Of a stretch of DNA of 64,000 nucleotides, positions 1,225-52,468 are shown piece after piece. Source of the stretch: Eledone cirrhosa (taxonomy: Eukaryota); the NCBI GenBank assembly GCA_964016885.1, contig OZ024748.1:51522001-51586000 (forward strand), written 5' to 3'. How positions within the stretch are numbered: position 1 is the first letter of the stretch; each line of letters begins with the position of its first letter. The notes under the pieces are model-generated. The model was not told the origin of the DNA and ran no database searches. It saw only the letters and a program-made list of their open reading frames with translations. The position numbers were made by a program, and so were the translations under genes.

Positions 1225-2172
1225 CCCTTTAGCATTCAAACTGACCATATATGGCCAGAATTTTCTCACCTCATTCTGTTCAAACTAGCCATAACTGGCC
1301 CATCATACTGATGTTAAGGTATTGTTCTCAAAATAAATAATATCAAAATCTCATAGATTCGATATTATGTGAAATAATTATGCGAGGTAAAGCTTTTTCT
1401 GTAAAAAATACAAGAGTATATATAGCAGTCATGTCAAACTGAGGGTCCCCCGAGGACCACATGGGTCACATATGTGTTGTCTGAGGGCCACATGGGCCAC
1501 ATATGTGTTGTCTGAAGGCCACATGGGTCACATATGTGTTGTCTAAGGGCCACATGGGTCAAATGTGTGTTGTCTGAGGGCCACATGGGCCACATATGTG
1601 TTGTCTGAGGGCCACATGGGCCACATATGTGTTGTCTGAGGGCCACATGGGTCACATATGTGTTGTCTGAGGGCCACATGGGTCACATATGTGTTGTCTG
1701 AGGGCCACATGGGCCACATATGTGTTGTCTGAGCGCCACATGGGTCACATATGTGTTGTCTGAGGACCACATGGGCCACATATGTGTTGTCTGAGGGCCA
1801 CATGGGTCACATATGTGTTGTCTGAGGGCCACATGGGTCACATATGTGTTGTCTGAGGGCCACATGGGCCACATATGTGTTGTCTGAGCGTCACATGGGT
1901 CACATATGTGTTGTCTGAGGGCCACATGGGTCACATATGTGTTGTCTGAGGACCACATGGGCCACATATGTGTTGTCTGAGGGCCACATGGGTCACATAT
2001 GTGTTGTCTGAGGGCCACATGGGTCACATATGTGTTGTCTGAGCGCCACATGGGTCACATATGTGTTGTCTGAGGGCCACATGGGCCACATATGTGTTGT
2101 CTGAGGGCCACACATGTCAACTAATTGCACACATTACAACTAATTCTTTATAGTAATATAAATGCTAAAGGG
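1225..2172 (+). mobile_element. piggyBac-type non-autonomous MITE (~220 bp) interrupted by a ~725-bp insertion
   Basis: TTAA|CCCTTTAGCATT ... AATGCTAAAGGG|TTAA termini; body matches the uninterrupted copy at 50474-50693. Confidence 0.85.
1452..2111. repeat. 31-bp minisatellite, ~21 near-identical copies
   Basis: Unit GAGGGCCACATGGG(T/C)CACATATGTGTTGTCT with period 31 (e.g. CATGGG at 1460 and 1491). Confidence 0.97.
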
Positions 2173-7194: not shown

Positions 7195-7400
7195 ATATAT
7201 AAAACACAGCAAAACGAATGAAGATACAGAACAATGAAGATATATATTAGTCAAATGCTTGATATAGTAGGACAAAAGTCTTAACATTTCAGATGTCAGT
7301 CATTCATCAGAAGAGAGAATGAGAAATTAAAAAGAAATAGAAAAAATAGAGTGAGAAGAGGAAGAAATAAAAACAATTTTGGGGTAGAAAAATTAATGTT
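7195..7400 (-). mobile_element. Diverged Penelope-like non-coding terminal repeat with decayed hammerhead motif (7279-7314)
   Basis: Minus: TCTT CTGATGA ATGACTGACATCT GAAA TGTT AAGA; downstream sequence homologous to 21085-21230 and 36945-37130. Confidence 0.6.
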
Positions 7401-7974
7401 TAATTAGCCATAAACATATATAAGCAGGGAAAAGTGGTTGTAAAATGATGATGATGATATATGTATGTGTGAATTGGGACCCCAATGGCTAAGCTCTTGC
7501 CACTAGCTTTTGTAACAGCAAGAACACAGCTATTGTGGTCACGACTCTTTCATATTACCATACTCTACTACACCGAGTATTGAGTTCTCTGATGAGAAAT
7601 GGTCGAAACAGGTTGTACAATGCCTCATTACTGAAAGAAAACAGTCAACATGACCTTGATTCTGATATGATGTTTTTTTTGTTTTTTTTTTGGGGGGGGG
7701 GCATATCGATATTGGATGGTTCCACTGTGATGAGTGAGTTTTGGTTTCTGGGTCATATCCCCAGTTATCCTGATACTCAGGTTCGATGTTGGAAGTAATC
7801 AGGTCAATAGTGTAGTACCTCACAGTGACCAATATATCCAGAGATATCATCATACACATGAGTACATGTGGCACCACTCTGCAAAGATTTTATATCCCTA
7901 ACATTATTACTTCCCATGGAAATGGGAAGTAATAATGGGGGACCCTTTTTCAACAGACCTCATGTGTGTGTGTA

Positions 7975-12103: not shown

Positions 12104-12534
12104 ATATATTGGTAAAAGGAAAAGAAAATGCTGACAAATTGTTCCCAGTGAAAAATAGTTTAATTAGGAATAAATAAAAATTAGTAATAGTATTGGTTAG
12201 TATTCAGTTTTGGTTTTAAGTTTTACTGGTTGCGCATTTCTAATGCTTTTCAAAAATAATTTTGAGATAGAGTGCCCGTGATGTTTGCTCTAAATGCTTT
12301 TCAAAAATAATTTTGAGATAGAGCGCCCGTGATGTTTGCTCTAATTAGAGCAAACATCACGGGCGCTCTATCTCAAAATTATTTTTGAAAAGCATTAGAA
12401 ATGCGCAACCAGTAAAACTTAAAACCAAAACTGAATACTAACCAATACTATTACTAATTTTTACTTATTCCTAATTAAACTATTTTTCACTGGGAACAAT
12501 TTGTCAGCATTTTCTTTTCCTTTTACCAATATAT
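12104..12534. repeat. Near-perfect spacerless palindrome (~190-bp arms), with 51-bp tandem duplication in the left arm
   Basis: Centre CTCTAA|TTAGAG at 12344/12345; arms are reverse complements out to ATATATTGGTAAAAGG / CCTTTTACCAATATAT; 12242-12292 repeated at 12293-12343. Confidence 0.95.
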
Positions 12535-16634: not shown

Positions 16635-17282
16635 TAATTGTTTCTACTTTTGGCACAAGGCCAGCAATTATCCTGGTACATTACTGGTACTTTATTTTAT
16701 CGACTCTGTAAGGATGAAAGGTAAAGTCAACCTCGGCAGGATTTGAACTCAGATCGTAAAGGGACGAAACTATGCTGGAAAGCATGGCGCCCGACCCTCT
16801 ACCGATACTATATATATAATTCATATAATACATGGCTTAGTGGTTAGAGCATTGGCCTTGCAATCGAAAGGTTGTGAGTTCAATTCTCAGACCGGGTGAT
16901 GTGTTGTTTCCTTGAGCAAGACACTTTATTTCACATTGCTCCAGTTTACTCAGCTGTAGAAATGAGATGATAGGACTGGGGTCCCTATCATTTCACAGCA
17001 ATTCTATGACTCAACCAGGGTTTATGGGTCCATACATATATTATAAGCGTTTAGAGAGGAGCGATAGATAGGAAAAATCGTCAGATTGTCAAATAAAATG
17101 ATTTGTGGCATTTGTTCTCGATATTTGCATTCTAAGTTAAAATTTTGCCAAGGTCAACTTTGCTTTCCATTCATCTGAGATTGATAAAGTACCAGTCAAT
17201 ATGATCGAATTGGGGTCAATATAATCAACTTTTTCTTTCTCTCAAAATTGCTGGCCTTGTGCCTAAATTAGAAATCCTTATT
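16635..17282. mobile_element. SINE A (16635-16810, -), CORE-SINE B 5' part (16833-17000, +), old SINE A (17050-17282, +)
   Basis: SINE B shows TGGCTTAGTGG (A-box), GAGTTCAATTC (B-box) and CCTTGAGCAAGACACTTT..CAGCTGTAGAAATG (CORE-like). Confidence 0.85.
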
Positions 17283-21084: not shown

Positions 21085-21232
21085 ATAATCTTATTTCTCA
21101 TTCTTTCTTCTTATGAAGGACTAGCATCCGAAACGTTAAGACCTTCTTCCTGCTATTTCAAGCATTAACCTAATATATTCCTTCCATATACATTGTCGAT
21201 CGTGTTGTTATTTCTGTTTACATTTTACATAT
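21085..21232 (+). mobile_element. Penelope-like non-coding terminal repeat with hammerhead motif (21106-21141) inside (TA)n
   Basis: TCTT C[T]TATGA A GGA-CTAGCA-TCC GAA ACGT T AAGA; one core substitution (G5 to T); homologous to 36945-37130. Confidence 0.7.
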
Positions 21233-21251
21233 ATATATATATATATATATA

Positions 21252-21408
21252 CATAACGAAGGAGGTGTGGTAAGGAACCAGATGGACCATAACGCACCAG
21301 AGTACTCAATACTTAGGGTAGTAGAGTGGGTAAAAGTTTAACCTCAACGGCAGAGCTCAAGCCGTTTCGACGGCTTGAGCTCTGCCGTCGGGGTTAAACC
21401 TTTTCCTA
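21252..21408 (-). mobile_element. (TA)n-embedded element with terminal fold-back hairpin (family shared with 32872-33148, 38295-38435, 52335-52435, 7480-7620)
   Basis: ~34-bp inverted arms around GCCGT-TTCG-ACGGC (21361-21374); shared CTCTACTA..AAGTATTGAGTACTCTG motif. Confidence 0.8.
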
Positions 21409-21514
21409 TATATATATACATATATTTATATATATAAAAGGTAAAAATTGTAGTTGCCTTCAAGTTAACACTGCCACTGTATGTTCAGAGTTTTTACATA
21501 TACCATATAATTTC

Positions 21515-21560
<46 letters not shown>

Positions 21561-21567
21561 CATGCAT

Positions 21568-21602
<35 letters not shown>

Positions 21603-22994
21603 GAGAGTTATATGTACACTTGTGTCTATGTTAGCAAATATTACGTTGTGTATTGGAGTTATGCATCTTAAATGATTGTTTTTCTAGGTATCAAACTGGA
21701 TATAATTGTCTGTGTGTGATTATGTATGTGTATGTGTGTTTGTGGATGTGTGTGGTGACTGTATATGTGTGTGTGACTGTGTATATGTGTATGTGTTTGT
21801 GTGTGGTCTGGATCACAAAGAGACATGACACATTTTACCCAGGTCATCAGATAGAGAATCAGGGAGGTGGAAAGAAGGAAAGAAAAGAGTAGTGAGAAAA
21901 AAGAGAGAGAGAGGGGAGGAGAATGTGAGTGGGAGGAGAATGTGAATGAGAAAGACCATTACGTAAGAACTGTCACAGTAAATTGCTGGTAATAAAAACA
22001 AGAAAATTATCATGAAATTGGTATATATTTGCAGAACTCTTGACAACTCTATACTTTTCTGGAGTTTAAACATAACCTTAGGTTATTTTCAAGCAACAAC
22101 AACAGCAACAACAATATCATCATTATCATTGTGGATAAAAACAAAAGCAATAAGAATAACAACATCAATAAAACAAAATTCATTACAAGAATAAAAAGAT
22201 ATACTTAAATATGTAAAAAAACAAGACAACAAACATCATAATAAAACAATGGCAACAGTAACTGTTAAGATTGCCAGAGGAATCAGTGGTCAAAGTTATA
22301 CTTATCGAAGATAAAATGGAAAAGTTATGCAATAGAAGGGGAAAAACTCTATTAAACCAATAATGTACATGTGTGATATGTGTGTGCAAGTGTATATGGG
22401 TGAAGTTGTTGTATGTCTTGCTTGTGTGCATTTTTGTGTATACAAACACATATAATCTTCACCTTTTCTTTCACTCTCCTTTTCACCTAAATGAGTACAT
22501 GTTTTGAATAAACCTTGTTTTGAAACCATTGACTGTAAGACCTCTGTAGTACTACACAGGTCCAGAGACAGGAGAAACTCCATCTCCCTGACCAGGGAGT
22601 TCCTCCAGTAGTTTTAAGTTGAGCATTTTTGACATGGCAAATTCTTATTCCTCTGAATCTTGCAGCTGTTGTCACTGCATCAGCAAGAAACTACATATAT
22701 TGTGGTACCATTGATGTCCCTTTATAAGAGATCTGACCTAACATTCTACTGCCATACTTGGGCTCTCTACTGCTAATTTTCAAGCCATTACCTATTAAAC
22801 ATATTCTATAAGCCTTATCCCACACATGCCAAATTAAGTATTATTATAAGCATTAACAAACATATAATAGAGCATTCTTTAACACAAAAACTGAACTGCA
22901 ATCCCATTACTTCCAATAATGTTAATTGTAAATCATAAACTATAATACTACTCCATACACTTTCACCTTTACTCTAACTTCACTGCTGATTTGA

Positions 22995-23407
22995 TAATGG
23001 TTTTTGATTTAGGCACAAGGCCAAACATTTGAGGGGATGGGAAAGTCGATTAAATCAACCCCAGTTTGTTACTGGTACTTTATTTTATCGACCCTGTAAG
23101 GTGGCAAAGCTAAACTTGGCAGGATTTGAGCTCTGAATGTTAGGATTTTACAGAATAAATGTATCAGCTTTTCTGGCCACAGACAGAAAGAGGTTGAGGT
23201 TTCTCCACAGAGTTTACTTTTTCACAGCAAAGCTAAATGTGTATTTGCTAAACACTCATACTGTTGAGTTTACCTTGTTAACTTGTATATCATATATGAA
23301 AGTATTTATTTCTATTATTGCATGAGAATTGATAGAATTTGAAACTCAGATTCACAGTGTGAGTATTTTCAGTTTAAAGTGAATAAAATTATATGTGTAT
23401 GTGTGTG

Positions 23408-23445
<38 letters not shown>

Positions 23446-25690
23446 AATATATATATGTGTGTGTATATATATATATTATTTGGCCAAAGTCAAATTTACA
23501 TCAACAAATATAATCTATTATATATAACTATATAGAAAAATAAATTTAAAAAAACAGCACACATGTAAAAACAAACAACTATAGTGTAAATCTGATTAAA
23601 AGAAAATCTTACTTGGTCTCTTCACATCAAAAACAAAAGTTACATTTATGTGCTCTTGTATGTCTATGTAAATGTGTATGTGTGTGATTGAATGTGTGTT
23701 TGTATATGTATCTGTTTACTTAAAAAACAAAAGGTTTATTTATAAATCACTTCTCTAAACAAAAGCTTATTAGTTTTTAGTATTTCTTTATGAAATATGA
23801 TTTAATCATTTTGGCAGAGTCTATAGAAAGCTAGACAACATAGCTTATGTTTATTTAGCTGCATTCCTTCATTTTACGAAAAAAAAAATTTTTTTTACTG
23901 AGAAAGGAGCCCCACGATGTGGAGTGGCTGTTGCAGCAGGTGTAGCTGGCCATTGTCTGTGGGAGATTTTTTGCAGTCCTGTCCACAGGGTCCAGGCCCA
24001 TTAACACTGCACCCTAGGCCCAGAGCCTATCACCCCCCCCTCCCCATTCTTCTGTGACACTGGCTTTCCCTTCCTTTTCTGTATTCTTTTAATATTTTCT
24101 TATTTTACATTCCATTCATTCTTCTCAATCTAATTTCTTTTCTTTTCCTATTAACTTGCACAGTTGAAATTTAATTTCACAAACGATATTCTCTCTAATA
24201 CCAGTTAAATAATTGTTTCTACTTTTGGCACAAGGCCAGCAATTACCCAGTGCATTACTGGTACTTTATTTTATCAACCCTGTCAGGAGAAAGGCAAAGT
24301 GAACCTCAGCGGGATTTGAACTCAGACTGTAAAGGGACGTAACTATACTGGAAAGCATGGCGTCCAACTCTCTACCGATACTGCCAATCCACCGGGGGTG
24401 AATCAGTCAACTGTAACCATCACAGCAAATTAAAAGGTTTGTTAGAATATAGACAGAAAGTCTTATAGTTAGTGTCCACGCTCTCTGTGTTCTGAGTTCA
24501 AATCCTGCCAAATTCAATCTTGCTGACAAGATGGTATCATATAAAATACACTCAAAAGAAGGCAATGTGGAACCTTCTTTATATTCTTTCATGAATATTC
24601 TTTTAAAAATAAATAAAAAAAACAACATAGTGCTTCTTAAGTATGACACCAAGGGTTTGGGCTCATTTAAGGACTTTATGGCACAAATTCTTCTCACACC
24701 AGGTTAGCAAGTACAGCAGATTATGTACTCTGTTGATCCATCTGAACACTGATCACAGACTCTTTCAGCTGATCTGTTCAGATTTGGCATCCCTACATTC
24801 TCACTATCCATGGAGTTGCTGTTCCTGATGTCTCATGCTTGAATGCATCCATCCATAACTAAATATCTCTAGAGTTTCTTTTACTTCTTTGTCCACTTAT
24901 TCGTAAGAGGGTTGTGGAGGCAGAGTCATCAAACACTCTGTCAGAAGTAATCCTTTCCAATTGATCCAGCTAGATCGTCAAATGAAATCAGCCAAGCTCA
25001 TGGATGCTACACAACCATCTTGCTCAGAGTCTACTCTTGGGTCTCCTGTTGGTTGTTTCTGCCCATGAAATATATCCAGCAAATCTTTTCTCTAATATTC
25101 TAATCATCAAGTTCCAATGGATATTTTTTGCTCCCTTCGAAACCGTCTTTGGAATCTCAGGATACACTTTCATAATTTCAGAATCAGTAAAATAAATTTC
25201 CAGCCAACTAATTCCTGCCCCCAAAATTTATAGTCATGTGTTTTTTGTTAGAAATCATTATCCTCATTTAACAACTGCTTTTCCATACGTGCATAATTTG
25301 GACAGATCTTTTCATTTCAATCTGATTTTCATACAATATATCCTCCTTTTTATTTAACCTCATTTATCCAACCACACATGTTTATAAGGTCTATATGTTC
25401 TAGTCCTAATAAAGAAATGAAAATAAAATACCAGTAATACACTGGGATAATTGCTGGCCTTGTGCCAAAATAGAAACAAATATTATTATTATTAGTAGTA
25501 GTGGATTGGCAGTATCGGTAGAGGGTCTGACGCCATGCTTTGCAGCAAAGTGCTACGGCCCTTTATGATCTGAGTTCAAATCCCGCCGAGGTTAACTTTG
25601 CCTTTCATCCTTACGGGGTCGATAAAATAAAGTACCAGTAATGTACTGGGTAATTTGCTGGCCTTGTGCCAAAAGTAGAAACACATATTA
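22995..25690. mobile_element. Dispersed SINE A copies (22995-23140 -, 24208-24394 -, 25420-25485 +, 25500-25690 +)
   Basis: Family body and tail recognisable at each listed position; the intervening sequence is not part of the call. Confidence 0.8.
24880..25105 (-). mobile_element. REX3/Expander-like RTE 3' fragment
   Basis: Reverse-complement homolog of 900-1162 and 49810-50070. Confidence 0.72.
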
Positions 25691-26572
25691 TTATTATTAG
25701 TAGTAGTAATTTTATTGCACATTGTCACTGCATCACGAAATGCAGCTCTTGTACAACTTGGGTATGTGCAGTGTGGTTTTTGGTGGTGTTATTTCTATTG
25801 TATTGGGAGTACTCTTCATAATATGTGTACCGAACCTAGTTGTAGTTAGTCCTGGGCTTTGGGTTATGTATCTGGCTTATTTTTTTTATCATTCCCAGAG
25901 AACGTTATTATTATTATTATTATTATTGTAATTATTACCATTATTATTCAGGAAATAATGATAACATCATGATAATCATAATTACTACTACTACTATTAT
26001 TATTATTATTATTATTATTGTTAATGTTGCTACAAATTTCTTTATGCAATATTTCTGGAAATATATATATATATATATATTTATTTTTTTTATTTTTCAA
26101 AATCCTCTTCAAATCTTTCCTTCAGGTAAAAGTGAAAGTGAAACAAGATCTTTATAGCTAATACAGAGTTTCTTTCTCTTCCATAATATGAATCTAAGAA
26201 GACACTTCCTTTGGCTGTAATGGGGAATTTTCTATCATCAGAATGAACCAAGCCATTAGCACTTTAGTAACTACATTAATCTAGTCTAGTGTAAGTTGAA
26301 TGTATTTCTATTGATGATTGTTGACATATTAGATGCAAAAAGGATGAAACAAAAGATTTTTCAAGTAAACCAAAATTTTGAAGAAGAAAAAAACATGCCC
26401 AATGATATTTTTTGGCAGAAATATGAAGATGTCGGGAGTGAGATGTGTCAACTGTCTAAACTAACCAGTTAATAAACTTTACATAGAAAAAAGTTTTTAA
26501 GAAAAAAACTGGAGCAAATGAAAAAAATGTTCTACACAAAGGTGTGTGTGTGTGTATGTGAACGTGTGTATG

Positions 26573-26603
<31 letters not shown>

Positions 26604-26699
26604 ATCTATATATATATATATATATATATATTTAGAGAGAGAGAAAGAAAGAAAAAGATAAGTCAGCTAGATAGATATGTATATATATATATATATACC

Positions 26700-26755
<56 letters not shown>

Positions 26756-27587
26756 CATATGCATATGTGTGTGTGTGTGTGTGTGCATGTGTGTATTGAA
26801 AACTTGATACATTTGTCAAGACTTTAAAATTTGGTCTATGAAAAAAAAAAATGAAAGGATTGTAAAATTGTAGAAAATTTAAAATTCCTAAGTATGTACG
26901 GAATCAGAAAAATTGGAAATATTACATTTGATAGCGAAATATTTATTTCATTTGATTTTGATTGCTTAGGAAAATTGATGGCTTAAAAAATCTGGGGTTT
27001 GGTCGGTGAATGAAAAACAAAATCATACACTTAGAAAAATATAATTTGAATGAAAGTAAATAGTTTTTCAGTTGAAATGTATGTTTGTGTATGGGTGTAT
27101 ATGCATACATCACACACACATATATAGATATATATACATACAGAGTGTATTAGTTTGTAACATTTAGTTACTGATGGTTCACCAGTCTGAGCACTCAATG
27201 CTAATATTTGTCTCTGTCTACTGATGTGGGATTCTAAGTTTGGCATTTTACCATTGTCAGTATCCTTCAGAAGCAGAGTGTTAAAATAAAAATAAGGAGC
27301 AGGTTTGAAGTATCACTATAACTCCAATATGTTTATTGAAACATGACACACGTTTCATAATCGATCTGCTCAAGGTAAGATCAGTAGTGATCAGGCCTGA
27401 CTCTGAAATCTGTTGACCATATGTCATTGTTTAGTCGAATACTCCCTTGCATCATAGGTTTATTCTATTAAAGATGATCTGGGGCTGCACAACAACATTA
27501 AACTAACAAGGAAGTCTCTATATGGTTCCTTTTTTTGCTAAAAGTAGTAGCCAAATCTCCTACAAATCACACACACTGCCATCTTAA

Positions 27588-27799
27588 CTCTTCATATTAG
27601 TCTATATTTACTATTTTATTTTCACAGTAAAGGCTTTACCTCACAAACTTATCTCACATAATATCGAATCTATGAGATTTTGATATTATTTATTTTGAGA
27701 ACAATACCTTAACATCAGTATGAGTGACGGTCACAGCCAGTTTGAAAAGAAAAAGGTGAGAGAATTCTGACGGTTACAGCCAGTTTAAATGCTAAAGGG
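27588..27799 (-). mobile_element. piggyBac-type MITE copy
   Basis: Family body reversed; ends AATGCTAAAGGG|TTAA. Confidence 0.8.
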
Positions 27800-28369
27800 T
27801 TAAATAAGCATGTATTGGATAATGTACTTTATGTAGAGAGCCAAGAAATCTTTAAAAGATTGTAATTGAAATGAAGAGAAAATTAATTGAATTTAATGAT
27901 TTTTGTCTCACTACATTAAATATATTGGCTCCCACTTTTCTATTTGGTTATCATGCAGAAGGCATCTCAGGGAAATTTCTCTATTGGAAAATGAAATGTT
28001 AGATACACCCCACATGGGAGGGATGAAAAGGGAGAGAATGGTCACAGCACTAGATCACATTTGATCATAGGTATGCTGGATCAGGGCCGAGATAAACTAG
28101 AGCCAAACAAAAAATAGTTGTAGTTAAGTTTATTATATTAAAGAAGGTAAAAAGATGGAACCATGAAATTGTTTCTGTCACAGCTGACTTCTAAAATAAA
28201 CATGGAGAGGCCTTTAAAAGGGATGATATAAAAACAGATGCCATTTAGACATTAGGAGCTGGGACAACATCACAAAATCTATTCAGGTTTCTATATTCTT
28301 CAGGTTTACTTTATTCCTTTTTTTGTTGTTATTCTAATTCTTCTTTTTTCCAAATTTTCTTTACCATCT

Positions 28370-28706
28370 TATTGTCATCATCATCACCATCATCAGCAAC
28401 AACATTGCCATCATTGGCATCATCATCATCATCATCTTCGTGACCATTATCCTCATAGCCATTGCCATCACCATGATCATCATCACCACCTCCATTATAA
28501 TCATGATCATCACCATCATCGCCATTATCATCATCATCATCATCACCATCACCACCATCAACACCATCACCACCATCATTCTCACCAACATCATCACCAT
28601 CATCATCACCATCACCACCATCATCACCATCATCATTCTCACCACCATCATCACCATCATCATCACCATCACCACCATCACCACCATCATCGCCATTGTC
28701 ATAATT

Positions 28707-28737
<31 letters not shown>

Positions 28738-29192
28738 CCACCATCATCATCATAATCGTTACCACCACCATCATCATTGCTATCATCAACGTCACCAACA
28801 TCATCATCATTACCATCACCGCCATTATCATCATTACCATTGCCATCATCGCCATGATGATGATCATCATCATCATCACCACCAACATCGCCAACATCAT
28901 CATCATCACCATCGCCATCACCATGACCATCATCATTGTCACCAGCATCATCACCATCCCGACCATCATTACCTTCGCCATCATGATCATGATGATGATC
29001 ATCATCATCATCACCGCCAACATCGCCACCATCATCAACGTCACCAACATTATCATCATTACCATCACCATCAACATCATCATCATCACCACCTTCATCA
29101 GCATCATCGTCATCACCAGCATCATTATCTTTGCTATCATCATCACCACCATTATCATCATAATCATTGTCTATATATTTATCATCATCATC
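28370..29192. repeat. ~820-bp degenerate (CAT)n/(CAC)n tract
   Basis: Direct inspection; source of the spurious Met/Ile/Thr-rich ORFs. Confidence 0.95.
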
Positions 29193-29341
29193 TTGAATAC
29201 CTTTACGTTTTCATTCTCATTTTCTTTCTTCATGTAATATACCTCTTTCTCTTTATCTTCTCCCCCCCCCTATCCTCTTCTTTCCCCTTCCCCACGTCCA
29301 GATCTTCATTCCATCCCTTTTTTTAACCTTATTATTATTAT

Positions 29342-30238
29342 TGGCGTTTTATAGGGGATTAGTGGAGGGGAAGAGCGACGACGTACTTGGAGAAACTCTA
29401 GGCATCGACGAAAATCAACTAGCCAATCTCTTTGGAAGAACTTTCGGGCTGGGGCCTATGGACAACTTCCAGAAATCCCTAGCCTGGCACTGCTACCAAG
29501 GAGCTTTGCCAGTTCGGGATAAACTCTACAGGCATGGAGGTGTCGTCAGCCGGGCATGTCCGAGATGCGCGCAGGGTGACGAAACCGTCCTGCGTTCAGT
29601 GTCCGAGCATTGCTGACTTGTGGGTTTATGTCAAACACCTGCTGTCGTGTGTAGAACGGATCTGACTATCAGCTGAGTCCATTGTGAGGATTGCTCCACC
29701 CTCTTCCTTTAGCCGGAAAGGGCAGGCAGTTTTTATCTGTCTAGTGGCCATGGCGAAAGAGATAGTATGTGGACGCGTCTGAAAGGGTTGAAGACGAGCA
29801 CTTACCTCTTCGGTGATGCCCTGATTAACTTTTTCAAATTTCATTTGAAAAGGAAAATCAGGGTAGAGAGGCATGTGCTCTCTTCCCAGCATTTTGTTGA
29901 AAGATGGGTGAGAGAGGCAAGCATGGGTCGAGTGAATGGACCTACTCTGAGTATATGCCTGTAAATTGAGGGTGGAAAACTGGGAGAGGGCACTTGCCCT
30001 GGTGGTCAGGGTCACCGTGGCTTTTTTTAATGGGCTTTCTCCACGATGGCCCTTGGAAGTCTCCCCCCTATTGGGGAATTTTTCATTGTTCTTTTATTAC
30101 ATCCTCTGTTTTTTTTTGTTTTTTTTACACGCAGAAATGCCCATTTGTACCGTCCTGTATTTTCCTGTACTGTCCTTAATGTCTACTTTGTGTAAACCCT
30201 TGTGGTTAATAAAGAAAGCATTATTATTATTATTATTA
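29342..30238 (+). mobile_element. 5'-truncated L1/Tx1-clade LINE: ORF2 C-terminus (zf-RVT) plus 3' UTR, inserted in (TTA)n
   Basis: DNFQKSLAWHCYQGALPVRDKLYRHG...CPRC...ETVL..C...WTRLK...FVERW matches the L1/Tx1 W...LP...CPxC...ET..H...C zinc knuckle; frameshifts present; ends AATAAAGAAAGC(ATT)n. Confidence 0.88.
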
Positions 30239-30239
30239 T

Positions 30240-30533
30240 GACCATGCGCCTACAGGCTAGCTAACTTGAAGAGAGGGGTGCTCTCCCTGGATGCCCTAGA
30301 AGAGCAGGGTGGTTCAGGATTGGTGGGGTACCTGAGTCACCCCAGAGTCGTCCACCCCCTATCCGGGAATTTATTTTGTTATATTTATGCATAGTTATTT
30401 TATATTTTTATATCTTCATTGTTAAATTAGTCTTGCCATTGTGCACTTTTACTTGACCTTATTGTAAACCCCCCACTGTCCCCGCCTTTGTATTGTCCCC
30501 TACATGTCGGCCCTTGTGGCTAATAAATGAAAT
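30240..30533 (+). mobile_element. 3' UTR of a second L1/Tx1-like element directly downstream
   Basis: Same terminal architecture (TGTAAACCC..TGTATTGTCCCC..CCCTTGTGGCTAATAAA); followed by SINE A at 30540-30745. Confidence 0.6.
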
Positions 30534-30864
30534 CCTTGCTGTGGATTGGCAGTATCGGTAGAGGGTCAGACGACATTCTTTGATGCATAGAGTTACGGCC
30601 CTTGCCATTCTGAGTTCAAATCCAGCCGAGGTTAACTTTGCCCTTCATCTTTACGGGGTCGATAAAATAAAGTACCAGTAATACACTGGGTATTTGCTGG
30701 CCTTGTGCCAAAAGTAGAAACAATTATTATTATTATTATTATTATTCCTCTACTTTTTCGTTCCATGTTATCCATTCTCTTAGAAGCATTTGTCCCCTAT
30801 CCTACACTAATGTATTTTATCTGTATTTCTTTAAACCTTTATTACATCTTCACCACCACCACCA

Positions 30865-31064
30865 NNNNNNNNNNNNNNNNNNNNNNNNNNNNNNNNNNNN
30901 NNNNNNNNNNNNNNNNNNNNNNNNNNNNNNNNNNNNNNNNNNNNNNNNNNNNNNNNNNNNNNNNNNNNNNNNNNNNNNNNNNNNNNNNNNNNNNNNNNNN
31001 NNNNNNNNNNNNNNNNNNNNNNNNNNNNNNNNNNNNNNNNNNNNNNNNNNNNNNNNNNNNNNNN
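30865..31064. other. Assembly gap (200 N)
   Basis: Run of N flanked by simple repeats. Confidence 1.
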
Positions 31065-31115
31065 CACACACATGCATATATATATATACATAATCATATA
31101 CATGCATATACATAT

Positions 31116-31146
<31 letters not shown>

Positions 31147-31229
31147 CATATATACACACACATGCTTATATATATACATAATCATATACATGCATATACA
31201 TATATACATAAATACATACACACACATAT

Positions 31230-31272
<43 letters not shown>

Positions 31273-31448
31273 CGCATGCGTATCTATGCATAATCATACA
31301 TGCACATACATACTTAAATACATACATATATTATATATATATATATATATATATACATACATACACATAGATGCAGTATGTAATCTTACATGTAGATAAG
31401 TAAATAAGTAATTGTATATAGCTGAATGCACACATTCACAAAGTCATA

Positions 31449-31507
<59 letters not shown>

Positions 31508-31544
31508 ACACACATGCACACACTTACACACATATAACCACACA

Positions 31545-31680
31545 TATGATGGGCAAAAGTTCAAGGTTTGTGGAATAGAACCTGAGCAATTTCACCAGCT
31601 TCTTCTGATATCTGCCATGTCATGGAGCCACGGACCGTATCCCAGAGGGCAGCAGAGTAAATGAAGAACCCTGTTTTGTT
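31545..31680 (+). mobile_element. Possible degraded mariner end plus transposase scrap
   Basis: TA-TGATGGGCAAAAGTTC resembles the MITE terminus at 37744; FF/DI...PEGSRVNEE resembles mariner FFD...VPEGQTVNxE. Confidence 0.3.
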
Positions 31681-31882
31681 TAGTAATATATCTTTGGGTG
31701 GTTTTTGATTGTTTTGACTTTGGGTGAACTCCATTATTTCAAGGGGATATCACCGAAATTGGTAACGCTTTATAAAACTCAAGGAATCTATCATATGACC
31801 GAATGGCTTTTGTGTGATTTTTTTTTTAAATTGTTTTTATATATATATATATGTATATATGTATATATATACACATATATAT

Positions 31883-32071
31883 GCATCATCATCATCATCA
31901 CCATCATCATCTCCATCACTCCTCTACCACTAACATAGACACCATTTTCATCATCATCATCATCATCATCATCACCATCATCTCCATCACTAATATAATT
32001 GACATCATCATCATCATCATCACCATCATCTCCTTCACTCCCTCTACCACTAACATGAACACCATTTTCAT

Positions 32072-32109
<38 letters not shown>

Positions 32110-32630
32110 CTAATATAATTGCCATCATCATCATCATCATCATCACCACACATCTCCATTCCTAACATAGACACTATTTTCATAATCATCATCAGAATCA
32201 TCAGAATCATCATCATCATCATCAACAGACAACACTACCATAATCATCATCATTATCCTCATCATCTCCTCCACCCCCATCACTAACATAAACAGCATTG
32301 TCATCATCTCCACCATCTCCATCACTAATATAAATGCCATCATCATCATCACCATCATCATCTCCACCACCCCTACCACTAACAAACACCATTATCAAAA
32401 TAATCACCATCATCTCCGCCATCTCCACCACTAACATAACCACCATTATCACAATCATCATCATCATCACCTCCATCTCCACCATCATTATTATAATTAT
32501 CATCATCATCACCTCCATTATTATCATCATCACCACCGCCGCCGCCGCCGCCACCACCCCACCGCCGCCGCCGCCGCCGCCACCGCCGCCGCCACCACCA
32601 CCACCATAATTATTATATATCATCATCATT
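31883..32630. repeat. Compound (CAT)n/(CAC)n/(CCG)n tract with higher-order CCACTAACAT-anchored units
   Basis: Direct inspection. Confidence 0.92.
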
Positions 32631-32871
32631 GTATGGGTGAGAATATGATAATGTGATATTCTCTATATATTGTAGCTTCTGCCTCTTATTACCTTTATAT
32701 ATTACCTGAGTGTATTGTGTGTGAGTGTGTGTATGTATTGTGTGTGTGTGTGTGTGTGTGTATTGTGTGTGTGTGTGTGTGTGTATTTGGGTGTGTGTGT
32801 GTGTGTGTGTTAGAAGAGAAAGGTGGACAGACTGAAGTTAGTAAGAGAGGAAAAGTTGAACCAAAATACAT

Positions 32872-33148
32872 ATATATAACGAAAGAGTTGTGGTAAGGAA
32901 CCAGATGGACCATACCGCACCAGAGTACTCAATACTTAGGTTAGTAGAGGAAAATAGGAAAATGTTTAACTCCGACGGCAGAGCCCGTTTTGACGGCTAG
33001 TTCGAGTCCAGAAATAGCTGTCGAAACGGCTTGAGCTCTGCCGTCTGGGTAAACATTTTTCTATTACCCACTCTACTAACCTAAGTATTGAGTACTCTGG
33101 TGCGTTATGGTCCATCTGGTTCCTTACCACAACTCCTTCATTATATAT
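32872..33148. repeat. Long inverted repeat (~125-bp arms, ~15-nt loop) of the 21252 family
   Basis: GAGTTGTGGTAAGGAACCAGATGGACCATA... pairs with ...TATGGTCCATCTGGTTCCTTACCACAACTC; both ends in (TA)n. Confidence 0.92.
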
Positions 33149-34771: not shown

Positions 34772-34834
34772 TAAGGAAAAAAAGCACTATGAAATGCACA
34801 TCCATTTGTTTTGAAAATTCATATATATATATAG

Positions 34835-34870
<36 letters not shown>

Positions 34871-34919
34871 GAATTTTCAAAACAAATGGATGTGCATTTC
34901 ATAGTGCTTTTTTTCCTTA
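34772..34919. repeat. Perfect ~50-bp inverted repeat flanking a (TA)n spacer
   Basis: TAAGGAAAAAAAGCACTATGAAATGCACATCCATTTGTTTTGAAAATTC and its exact reverse complement at 34871-34919. Confidence 0.95.
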
Positions 34920-36606: not shown

Positions 36607-36928
36607 CATCATTTTACGTCTGCTTTTCCCTGCTTGCAAGGGTGGGACGGGAACTGATTTTGGTTTGATTTCTACAGCTGGATGCCCTTCCTAACACCAA
36701 CCTCATTTACAGTGAGTGCTGCGTGCTTTTTTTTCCGTGGCACCTACATGCCCACTTTTTACACTGTGGGCTGGGTGTTTTTTCTGCCGTGGCCCCTCCA
36801 AGACCACTTTGCAGTGGAATGATAGAAACCCCAGTCCTATCACCTCATTTCTACAACTGAGTAAACTGGAACAATGTGAACTCACAACATTTCGATTGCA
36901 AGCCCAATGCTCTAACCACTAAGCCATA
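36607..36928 (-). mobile_element. CORE-type SINE B with RTE-derived tail (internally deleted)
   Basis: Matches 37943-38275 with part of the CORE region missing. Confidence 0.85.
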
Positions 36929-36944
36929 TATATATATATATATA

Positions 36945-37130
36945 TATGTAAAAGTTAAACAGAAATAACAATATAATCGATACAGTATATGGAAGGAATA
37001 TATTAGGTTAACGCTTGAAATAGCAGGAAGAGAGTCTTAATGTTTCAGATGCTAGTCCTTCATCAGAAGAAAGAATGAGATGGCGGAATTTGAAAAAAAT
37101 GTTCTTAGAGAAAAGTAACAAGTCCATTCA
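36945..37130 (-). mobile_element. Penelope-like non-coding terminal repeat with hammerhead motif (37035-37070)
   Basis: Minus: TCTT CTGATGA A GGA-CTAGCA-TCT GAA ACAT T AAGA; core intact, with CpG-type changes in stems II and III. Confidence 0.7.
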
Positions 37131-37942: not shown

Positions 37943-38275
37943 TCATCATCATTTTACGTCCGCTTTTCCCTGCTTGCAAGGGTGGGACAGGAACTGATTC
38001 TGGTTTGATTTCTACAGCTGGATGCCCTTCCTAACACCAACCTCATTTACAGTGAGTGCTGGGTGCTTTTTTGCCATGGCACCTCCACGACCACTTTGCA
38101 GTGGAATGATAAGGACCCCAGTCCCTATCATCTCATTTCTACAGCTGAGTAAACTGGAGCAATGTGAAATAAAGTGCCTTGCTCAAGGAAAGAACACATC
38201 ACCCGGTCTGAGAATTGAACTCACAACCTTTCGATTGCAAGGCCAATGCTCTAACCACTAAGCCATATGCCTCCA
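37943..38275 (-). mobile_element. Full-length CORE-type SINE B with RTE-derived (GAT)n tail
   Basis: Head GGAGGCATATGGCTTAGTGGTTAGAGC..GAGTTCAATTC; CORE-like CCTTGAGCAAGGCACTTT..CTCAGCTGTAGAAATG; tail GGTTGGTGTTAGGAAGGGCATCCAGC..GGACGTAAAATGATGATGA shared with the RTE LINE 3' UTR. Confidence 0.9.
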
Positions 38276-38660
38276 TATGTATATATGTATGTATGTGTAG
38301 GTCAGGGTTTTACCAGTTTAAACAAATAAAAGCAATTATTCAGCAGAGTACTCAATACTTGTGATAGTACATATTTTACATATAGTAGAGAGATGGGGCC
38401 CGACATAGCTCTTGCCATTTCAACGGAAATTCCATATATATGAGTGTGAGTCTCTCAGCCTCTCCCTCTCTCTGATATATGAGTTGGTGTAGGCATATGT
38501 ATATTTGTGTTTATTTTTTATTCTGTGAGTGTGTGTGTGTGTGTGTGTAGGGGTGTGTTGATGTGTGTGTGAGTTGATGTGCATCAGTTTGTTGCATGTG
38601 TGTGAGCATGAGTACAGTGTGTGTGTATGTGTGTGTGTGTGTGTATGTGTGTGTGTGTGT

Positions 38661-40351: not shown

Positions 40352-40502
40352 TATATATATATATCTATATCCAAAATTATGTGTGTCATGCCAGAAAGAC
40401 ATGCGCCATATCACCCGCAAAATTTTACGGGTGATATGGCGCATGTCTTTCTGGCATGACACCCATAATTTTGATTATCTTAATTTTGGATATAGATATA
40501 TA
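40352..40502. repeat. Spacerless palindrome (~65-bp arms) in (TA)n
   Basis: Centre AAAA|TTTT at 40422/40423; TGTCATGCCAGAAAGACATGCGCCATATCACCCG pairs with CGGGTGATATGGCGCATGTCTTTCTGGCATGACA. Confidence 0.95.
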
Positions 40503-52256: not shown

Positions 52257-52468
52257 TATATAATTCATTTATTGGCAGCATGACTCTCCCAAATTATAAC
52301 AATATATACATATATATTTGAAAAGATTCAGAACCTGGTTGGAGCTCAGCCATAGGGGTCCTAAATCTTTTCATATGATGCACTCTACTACCCCAAGTAT
52401 AGAGTGTACTGGTTTTTACCACACCTTATCTCATATATATATATATGTGTGTGTGTGTGAGTGATTGC

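What the first reader, a model, noticed from the sequence alone, without database searches (positions are those of the whole stretch)
21252..33148. Fold-back insertions of one family turn around at a hammerhead-like stem-loop/GAAAC
Seen: two independent insertions are inverted duplications of the same element end. At 32872-33148 the apex is the hairpin GACGGCTA-15 nt-TAGCTGTC immediately followed by GAAACGGCTTGAG. At 21332-21405 the apex is GCCGT-CGAA-ACGGC itself. A linear relative at 38295-38435 also stops just 5' of the same GAAA. Inference: reverse transcription from the element 3' end halts in the ribozyme region, and the cDNA folds on a pre-existing hairpin and self-primes. This would be a ribozyme-structure-guided palindrome generator seeding (TA)n tracts with dsRNA hairpins. 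The CUGANGA half is not visible here because it would be replaced by the inverted arm.
Basis: partly seen in the sequence, partly recalled or inferred. Interest (0 to 1): 0.75.

Follow-up and report, generated by a model that had tools for sequence, protein, structure and literature searches.

The report
Two-primer palindromes of a Penelope retroelement
These palindromes are short, truncated copies of a very abundant Penelope-like retroelement that inserts into TA repeats and carries a complete hammerhead ribozyme motif; each is likely made by two separately primed DNA copies joined head to head, not by one copy folding back at the ribozyme.

Summary
They are 5'-truncated insertions of a Hydra-clade Penelope-like element: 710-aa RT+GIY-YIG frame, 3.57-kb unit, (TA)n target, about 40,000 exact motif matches genome-wide. 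Longer copies have the missing 5' half, as the known U3-A8 core variant (UUGANAA) rather than CUGANGA. This is not a MITE: apices vary, and parent copies are themselves kb-scale palindromes. The fold-back mechanism is only partly supported. 56 of 58 short palindromes have exactly one 80-nt tail. In 20 of 75 pairs the tail-less arm reaches at least 15 nt further 5' than the tailed arm; in 12 the arms barely overlap or do not, so neither arm can be a copy of the other. This fits two cDNAs primed at the two known PLE start sites and joined by microhomology. Both arms do stop inside hammerhead loop II (49 of 61 at -33..-45). But the stop is template-coupled, weak on second passage (10 of 62), present with a broken core, and bounded by initiator-like motifs, so an RNA 5' end is somewhat likelier than a structural stall. 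dsRNA formation is untested.

The parts
21253..21408 (.). Insertion A: head-to-head pair, tailed arm (element sense on -) plus short arm (sense on +), in (TA)n
21253..21374 (-). Tailed arm of A, from about -31 to +99 (0 = first base after the hammerhead GUC site)
21361..21374 (.). Apex of A: natural inverted repeat GCCGT-CGAA-ACGGC of the parent (stem II 3' strand against stem III 5' strand), the junction microhomology
21370..21408 (+). Short arm of A, ending at the +20 start site (CC|TA)
32876..33143 (.). Insertion B: head-to-head pair with a tail on both arms (rare form), in (TA)n
32876..33003 (-). Left arm of B, -35 to +99
33005..33143 (+). Right arm of B, from AGTCC (-41) to +99
33015..33050 (+). 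3' half of a type I hammerhead: stem II 3' strand, GAAA, stem III (ACGGC/GCCGT), GUC site ending at 33045, stem I 3' strand; 5' half absent
33066..33143 (+). The PLE tail (+21..+99), which in tandem parents continues into the 5' leader of the ORF
38300..38433 (-). Diverged linear relative (sister family), starts about 10 nt 5' of GAAA
   Evidence: weak match
7470..7640 (+). Decayed palindromic copy of the older sister family (stem III loop AAGAGCTCA)
52331..52414 (+). Diverged linear relative

Best explanation
The two insertions are 5'-truncated copies of a Hydra-clade Penelope-like retroelement, and each palindrome is likely made by two separately primed cDNAs joined head to head. Shown: the parent encodes RT plus a C-terminal GIY-YIG nuclease, inserts in (TA)n, has a complete type I hammerhead motif with a U3-A8 core, and has two fixed 3' ends (+20 and +99). 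Inferred: a dimeric RT-nuclease cuts both strands of a TA tract; one end primes cDNA at +99 and the other at +20, usually on the same RNA. Both cDNAs run 5' and the two 3' ends are joined by short inverted microhomologies or short inserts; the hammerhead stems supply some of these, as at the apex of A. About 80% of first-pass cDNAs end at -33..-45, inside hammerhead loop II. The likelier cause (about 0.55-0.6, inferred) is that the template RNA starts there, at an internal promoter (initiator-like TCAKTY with its A at -45, TCAGTC at -41), so RT runs off the end; a stall on the folded or protein-bound ribozyme is the main alternative. Ribozyme cleavage is probably not needed.
For: Parent: 710-aa frame in L280 with DKT, CxCx5C, CxxC and CxH motifs and no CCHH; nearest Atlas clusters are PLE-type HTH_animal/GIY-YIG proteins; tandem leader-tail-ORF junction and 3568-bp period. 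Hammerhead: 86 arms, N7 free while U4, G5, A6, A9, G10.1, C11.1, C17 hold in 82-85 of 86; U3-A8 in 63. One tail per palindrome: 56 of 58, 0 with two, 0 with none. Short arm at least 15 nt further 5' than tailed arm in 20 of 75 pairs against 5 the other way; 12 pairs overlap by 6 nt or less, 10 of them keeping the -31..-41 stop, so not later deletions. Both arms carry the same subfamily type; rare alleles are mostly unmirrored, 53 against 6. Five head-to-head joints with another family at that family's own 5' end. In vitro, a PLE cuts and extends both strands, starts at two sites bounding the tail, and needs no active hammerhead (PMC11167929). Stop: hazard 0.10 per nt against 0.004-0.008; second pass 10 of 62 against 49 of 61, p 3e-13; opposite arm stops there in 0 of 9 when the long arm passes -46 against 17 of 35 otherwise, p 0.008; the only strict TCAKTY in the 3,574-nt unit is at -45; a subfamily with an unpaired C3-A8 core stops there too, 4 of 5.
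Against: No RNA data: start site, cleavage and transcription are all untested. In 21 of 75 pairs the tailed arm goes at least 3 nt further and in 20 the two are about equal; these, including A, fit fold-back just as well. If the ORF mRNA began at -45, most ORF-bearing copies should end there; only 16% do, which needs circular or read-through templates as an extra assumption. A non-templated G at -42 (cap signature) was inconclusive, 12 of 53, several explained by the other arm. The initiator match was found after the fact (p about 0.02), and the TATA-like TATTTAAATA at -70 is not kept in all subfamilies. A few ends reach -47..-54. Coupling of the two arms is also expected if the first RT melts a structure on a shared RNA. 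The 5 hetero-joints came from a selective pattern and could be replacements of one arm of an older palindrome. Samples come from the first 19 Mb of contig C1 (first pass) and C1-C4 (second pass).
Confidence: 0.66

Rival explanations
1. Two-primer joining as above, but the -33..-45 stop is a stall on the folded or RT-bound hammerhead; second passage escapes it because a circular template is by then an RNA:DNA hybrid. This keeps the ribozyme-guided half of the reader's idea.
For: The stop lies in the apical extension of stem II; second-pass escape and arm coupling are predicted; several other families also turn around at or just 5' of their hammerheads (clusters 0, 3, 7, 9); circular PLE RNAs are proposed in PMC4209133.
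Against: RT passes the stronger GC-rich stems III and II at background hazard and stops at a weak AU-rich hairpin; family H3 ends cluster about 110 nt upstream of its hammerhead; the sharp outer edge falls on initiator-like A residues.
Confidence: 0.3
2. One reading: one cDNA halts in the ribozyme, folds on a pre-existing hairpin and self-primes, copying itself back to a TA microhomology.
For: Arms share subfamily alleles; 32 of 75 junctions show overlap; the apex of A is a natural hairpin; self-priming was proposed for PLE palindromes in PMC3846280. It can explain a subset.
Against: It cannot give arms that hold sequence missing from the partner (20 of 75; 12 barely or non-overlapping), apex loops in either orientation to the tail, or hetero-family joints.
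Confidence: 0.15
3. Cascade: short palindromic copies are themselves transcribed and recopied, so the stop position is inherited from earlier truncated sources.
For: Short copies keep both RT start sites; a 273-bp tandem derivative lacking the hammerhead 5' half was inserted as a multimer (L443); the non-parental apex piece ATTTCG recurs.
Against: The same apex types occur in several subfamilies and in both orientations; junctions are mostly individual; ORF-bearing copies show the same stop, though weaker.
Confidence: 0.12
4. An ordinary TIR MITE, or arms made alike by later gene conversion.
For: Recurrent forms of about 160 and 280 bp exist.
Against: Variable apex, unequal arms, RT-encoding parent with the same ends, kb-scale palindromes; only 1 mirrored singleton allele against 16 unmirrored.
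Confidence: 0.02

Closest known systems
Hydra clade of Penelope-like elements (Craig et al. 2021, PMC8557442; e.g. Hydra-1_Obim)
   Same: C-terminal GIY-YIG, DKT, CxCx5C linker, no CCHH, (TA)n target, type I hammerhead with long stem II, inverted 5'-truncated copy, tail at one end; N-terminal and RT motifs match the printed Hydra alignment by eye.
   Different: 3.57-kb unit (typical under 3 kb), RWR for RWK, tail about 80 nt (30-40 typical for PLEs), U3-A8 core, and tens of thousands of roughly 160-bp palindromic copies. Two motifs of this family and one of its sister family were not in the paper's supplement.
Poseidon PAc of Anolis (Frangieh et al. 2024, PMC11167929)
   Same: Two RT start sites bounding the tail; both DNA strands cut and extended; hammerhead near the pLTR-ORF junction and dispensable for insertion in vitro.
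   Different: Other clade; the parts read do not explain inverted copies or report a fixed cDNA stop.
Penelope elements of Adineta vaga (Arkhipova et al. 2013, PMC3846280)
   Same: Head-to-head inverted pLTRs with palindromic junctions, optional tail, TATA plus Inr-like motif in the pLTR.
   Different: Interpreted there as self-priming, possibly on an antisense template, from few copies; the counts here favour two primers.
U3-A8 hammerheads of Schistosoma Cercyon PLEs (Cervera and de la Pena 2014, PMC4209133)
   Same: Same core covariation, in PLE pLTRs.
   Different: Those are minimal motifs; this one has a 5-bp stem III and a long stem II extension.
L1 twin priming (recalled, not read)
   Same: Second primer from the other target strand gives an inverted 5' segment joined by microhomology.
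   Different: Here the second start site is fixed and the two cDNAs usually cover the same RNA stretch, giving a palindrome rather than an inversion.

Membership tests
Penelope-like element, EN+ | Single ORF with RT and GIY-YIG endonuclease | tested here: met
   P0001 has YRDD and VIYQ..AYIG motifs; Atlas neighbours at 0.97-0.99 carry HTH_animal, GIY-YIG, RVT_1. Pfam scan and PDB search gave nothing.
Penelope-like element, EN+ | pLTR from partial tandems, inverted 5' copy, tail at one end | tested here: met
Hydra clade | DKT, CxCx5C linker, CxxC and CxH near the EN end, no CCHH | tested here: met
   HSDKTG, CNCPDRSIC, CNLC, CKH; one Cys between the GIY and YIG equivalents
Hydra clade | RWK motif; length under 3 kb | tested here: inconclusive
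   RWR present; unit is 3.57 kb because of a long 3' region
Hydra clade | (TA)n insertion preference | tested here: met
Hydra clade | Placement in the RT phylogeny | not tested
   No tree built; reference proteins were seen only in a paper's supplement
Type I hammerhead ribozyme | Core 3-9, GAAA, NUH site, three stems | tested here: met
   UUGANAA-G..C-GAAA, GUC site, stem I ACCCC/GGGGU, stem II CGGCUA/UAGCCG, stem III ACGGC/GCCGU in long copies; Rfam gave no hammerhead hit
Type I hammerhead ribozyme | Canonical C3-G8 pair (CUGANGA) | tested here: not met
   U3-A8 in 63, C3-A8 in 19, U3-G8 in 3, C3-G8 in 1 of 86 arms; U3-A8 is a published variant
Type I hammerhead ribozyme | Self-cleavage | not testable with these tools
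   Hammerhead fold -23.9 against minimum -25.9 kcal/mol; cDNA ends at the cleavage site not clearly enriched, 2 of 70
TIR MITE | Fixed terminal inverted repeats and fixed internal structure, transposase partner | tested here: not met
Non-LTR retrozyme | Tandem monomers each with a complete hammerhead | tested here: not met
   Copies are head-to-head; the one tandem seen (L443) lacks the 5' half

The most novel reading that the evidence does not exclude
Penelope-like elements integrate by double-ended priming: a dimeric RT-nuclease primes from both cut strands at two fixed RNA sites and the two cDNAs are stitched head to head, sometimes from two different RNAs. A promoter inside the ribozyme's own loop II yields transcripts that cannot self-cleave at the 5' copy and whose run-off cDNAs have filled this genome with tens of thousands of short hairpin-forming palindromes. 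This one rule would explain the inverted copy, the one-sided tail and the MITE-like look of PLE fragments.
Probability: 0.4. Interest if true: 0.72.

Novelty: new member of a known kind. Interest (0 to 1): 0.5.

Why it matters
How Penelope-like elements make their inverted copies and one-sided tails is described as undefined in PMC8557442, and self-priming is the published reading in PMC3846280. This young family gives tens of thousands of natural insertion products with two fixed start sites and one strong stop, enough to test the models by counting; a sample of about 270 sites already argues against self-priming alone. It also shows that MITE-like palindromes in (TA)n tracts can be retroelement products, which matters for repeat annotation, and that CUGANGA-only searches miss this ribozyme. 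If transcribed, the copies would be a large source of short dsRNA for editing or silencing (untested).

Tried and rejected
Rfam found no hammerhead in the window or in the parent's 3' region. I first read a CTGATGAG..GAAAC at 7589 as the true ribozyme site, 60 nt downstream; a genome pattern for it found 0, the sister family mostly reads CTGGTGAG..CTAAAC, and the idea was dropped. The pattern CTGANGA..GAAACGGC found 75 places; the 50 inspected were apex artefacts, decayed arms or joints with other elements, none a parent. GIY-YIG family hits (30 of 150 loci read) were other PLE clades with no link. Pfam and PDB searches with P0001 were blank. No RNA holder listed. Contigs of two runs of one sample laid on the parent's 3' end show loose ends at +19 followed by TA and at about -39, -41, -44; contig depth is not a copy count and is not used. 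Cap-G test inconclusive. Peak at the cleavage site not shown. No earlier scan finding matched. Target-site duplications cannot be read in (TA)n.

Full report
Observation. Both inverted duplications exist at the stated places and belong to one family inside (TA)n tracts. The third element at 38300-38433 is a weak, diverged relative. The family is huge: 38,884 exact matches of a 28-mer spanning GAAAC and 42,813 of a 22-mer in the long end, with 0 for reversed controls, in a 3.0-Gb genome. The host is probably a cephalopod; that is inferred from likeness to a published octopus Hydra element and was not tested. Coordinates below count from the first base after the GUC site (0).

The parent. In 75 insertions taken from the first 100 matches, several copies continue upstream. 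[quoted passage not shown] It shows the Hydra features listed in PMC8557442 (passages read): DKT, CxCx5C, CxxC, CxH, no CCHH; RWK appears as RWR. No tree was built. Forty close copies of the ORF start are 97-100% alike. Most of the 30 read show the canonical layout: hammerhead, +20 site, tail to +99, short leader, ORF, with a tandem period of 3568 bp. L278, L280, L281 and L283 carry kb-scale inverted arms with the turn inside or near the ORF. So the short palindromes are the truncated end of a continuum, not a MITE.

The ribozyme. Long copies read ACCCC-UUGANAA-G, stem II CGGCUA/UAGCCG with a ~35-nt extension, C-GAAA, stem III ACGGC/GCCGU, C, then GGGGU. In 86 arms (a few are duplicates or false matches) position 7 varies freely while its neighbours hold in 82-85; the 3-8 pair is U-A in 63, C-A in 19, U-G in 3, C-G in 1. 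U3-A8 is reported for Schistosoma PLE hammerheads (PMC4209133, passages). The hammerhead fold is 2 kcal/mol above the minimum, which instead forms the GCCGU-CGAA-ACGGC hairpin. Cleavage is untested.

How the palindromes form. (a) Of 58 short head-to-head pairs, 56 have one arm ending at +99 and one at +20, 2 have an intermediate end, none has two tails or none (the other 17 of 75 were read-through or had no partner within 200 nt). B is therefore atypical. (b) In 100 sites anchored on the tail, 75 had a short partner arm. The short arm went at least 15 nt further 5' in 20 and the tailed arm in 5. In 12 the tailed arm ended at +14 or later, and in 10 of these the short arm still ended at -31..-41. 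Neither arm can be copied from the other here, and later deletion would not keep the usual stop. (c) In 34 pairs the arms differed by 2.4 of 43 letters against 6.9 between insertions; mirrored alleles were subfamily alleles (106 of 112), and rare alleles were mostly one-sided. So arms usually come from one source, without later conversion; one or two pairs (L252, L230) mix two signatures. (d) Five loci join our sense end head to head to the 5' end of another family (selected by pattern). (e) Junctions show overlap in 32, blunt joins in 7 and inserts in 36 of 75, as in microhomology-mediated joining (recalled). PMC11167929 (parts 1-2 of 4 read) shows a PLE protein cutting and extending both strands, starting at two sites that bound the tail, unaffected by hammerhead mutants. 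Together this favours two primers. Against: 41 of 75 pairs, including the A type, also fit fold-back, the reading given in PMC3846280 (passages).

The stop. Of 61 tailed arms that pass -32, 49 end at -33..-45 (0.10 per base against 0.004-0.008 elsewhere); 54 of 77 partner arms end there too. Among 98 arms that had already copied a whole unit (100 of 161 matches listed, 2 not aligned, 4 from one tandem), only 10 of 62 stop there (p 3e-13). When the long arm passes -46 the partner stops there in 0 of 9, otherwise in 17 of 35 (p 0.008; 17 of 61 had no identifiable partner); first-pass read-through insertions agree. The stop is thus a property of the template molecule. It persists in the C3-A8 subfamily (4 of 5). 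The outer edge falls on the A of TCATT(C/T) at -45, the only strict TCAKTY in the unit, and of TCAGTC at -41, with a TATA-like stretch at -70 in some subfamilies (the consensus and spacing are recalled). Internal pLTR promoters are described for Drosophila and rotifer elements (PMC2377424 and PMC3846280, passages). I put run-off from an RNA 5' end at about 0.55-0.6 and a structural stall at about 0.3. The low second-pass rate needs circular or read-through templates under either view.

Generality. At least nine other repeat families in 1.2 Mb of fetched DNA form head-to-head palindromes at (TA)n, many with a one-sided extension. Some turn at their hammerhead, others 20-110 nt upstream of an intact one. 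Palindrome formation belongs to the insertion machinery, not to this ribozyme.

Novelty. Inverted copies, tails, (TA)n targeting and U3-A8 cores are all published for PLEs. Seven literature searches showed no paper on this family or on counting arm ends to test the mechanism; the library lacks most subscription papers, and Repbase and Dfam were not available. Of PMC8557442's supplement I saw search hits and one part of 59. Of an octopus repeat annotation (PMC13282606) I read part 1 and passages, with no mention of palindromes, hammerheads or Hydra in the main text; of bioRxiv 10.64898/2026.07.22.740005, part 1 of 5, its supplements being closed; of PMC7151607, passages. Verdict: a new member of a known clade whose copy number makes an open mechanistic question testable; interest 0.5.

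Noticed in passing
window 21096-21250; 36926-37080; 7236-7327: A second, unrelated PLE-type 3' end with a minimal type I hammerhead (CTGATGAAGG..CCGAAACGTT), ending in (TA)n; insertion A sits in its TA tract.
   Followed up: partly
window 12104-12534: Palindrome with 190-nt arms at 99% and a 51-nt duplication at the apex; another TA-targeting family with relatives in L195 and L231.
   Followed up: partly
window 34788-34903: Inverted repeat with (TA)n at its centre (tail-to-tail form); L008 has flanks of the same kind.
   Followed up: no
window 40372-40473: 51-nt-arm perfect-apex palindrome in a TA tract, family not identified.
   Followed up: no
L443 (G000:C3:214145800-214149000): 273-bp tandem of loop II to ORF start, about six units, inserted with an inverted tailed arm: looks like a rolling-circle product of a small derivative that lacks the hammerhead 5' half.
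   Followed up: partly
L149, L159, L162, L177, L189: Head-to-head joints between this family and family H3, all within about 20 nt of H3's usual 5' end.
   Followed up: partly
L003, L023, L166, L169, L305 (cluster 3): A palindrome-forming family whose hammerhead-like core reads CAGAAGA, a possible further core variant.
   Followed up: no
L206, L279, L372 and others: A successful subfamily with an unpaired C3-A8 core (14 of 17 arms with its signature), suggesting that cleavage is dispensable.
   Followed up: partly
L004, L016, L042, L069, L114, L117: Other Hydra-like families share a tail motif of the form TACT..GAGT(A/G)CT, a candidate RT-binding signal; compared by eye only.
   Followed up: no
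window 16833-16890 and 38124-38266: tRNA-derived SINE copies (Rfam tRNA score just under threshold).
   Followed up: no
window 1452-2112: 31-bp minisatellite, 21 copies, 94% matches.
   Followed up: no
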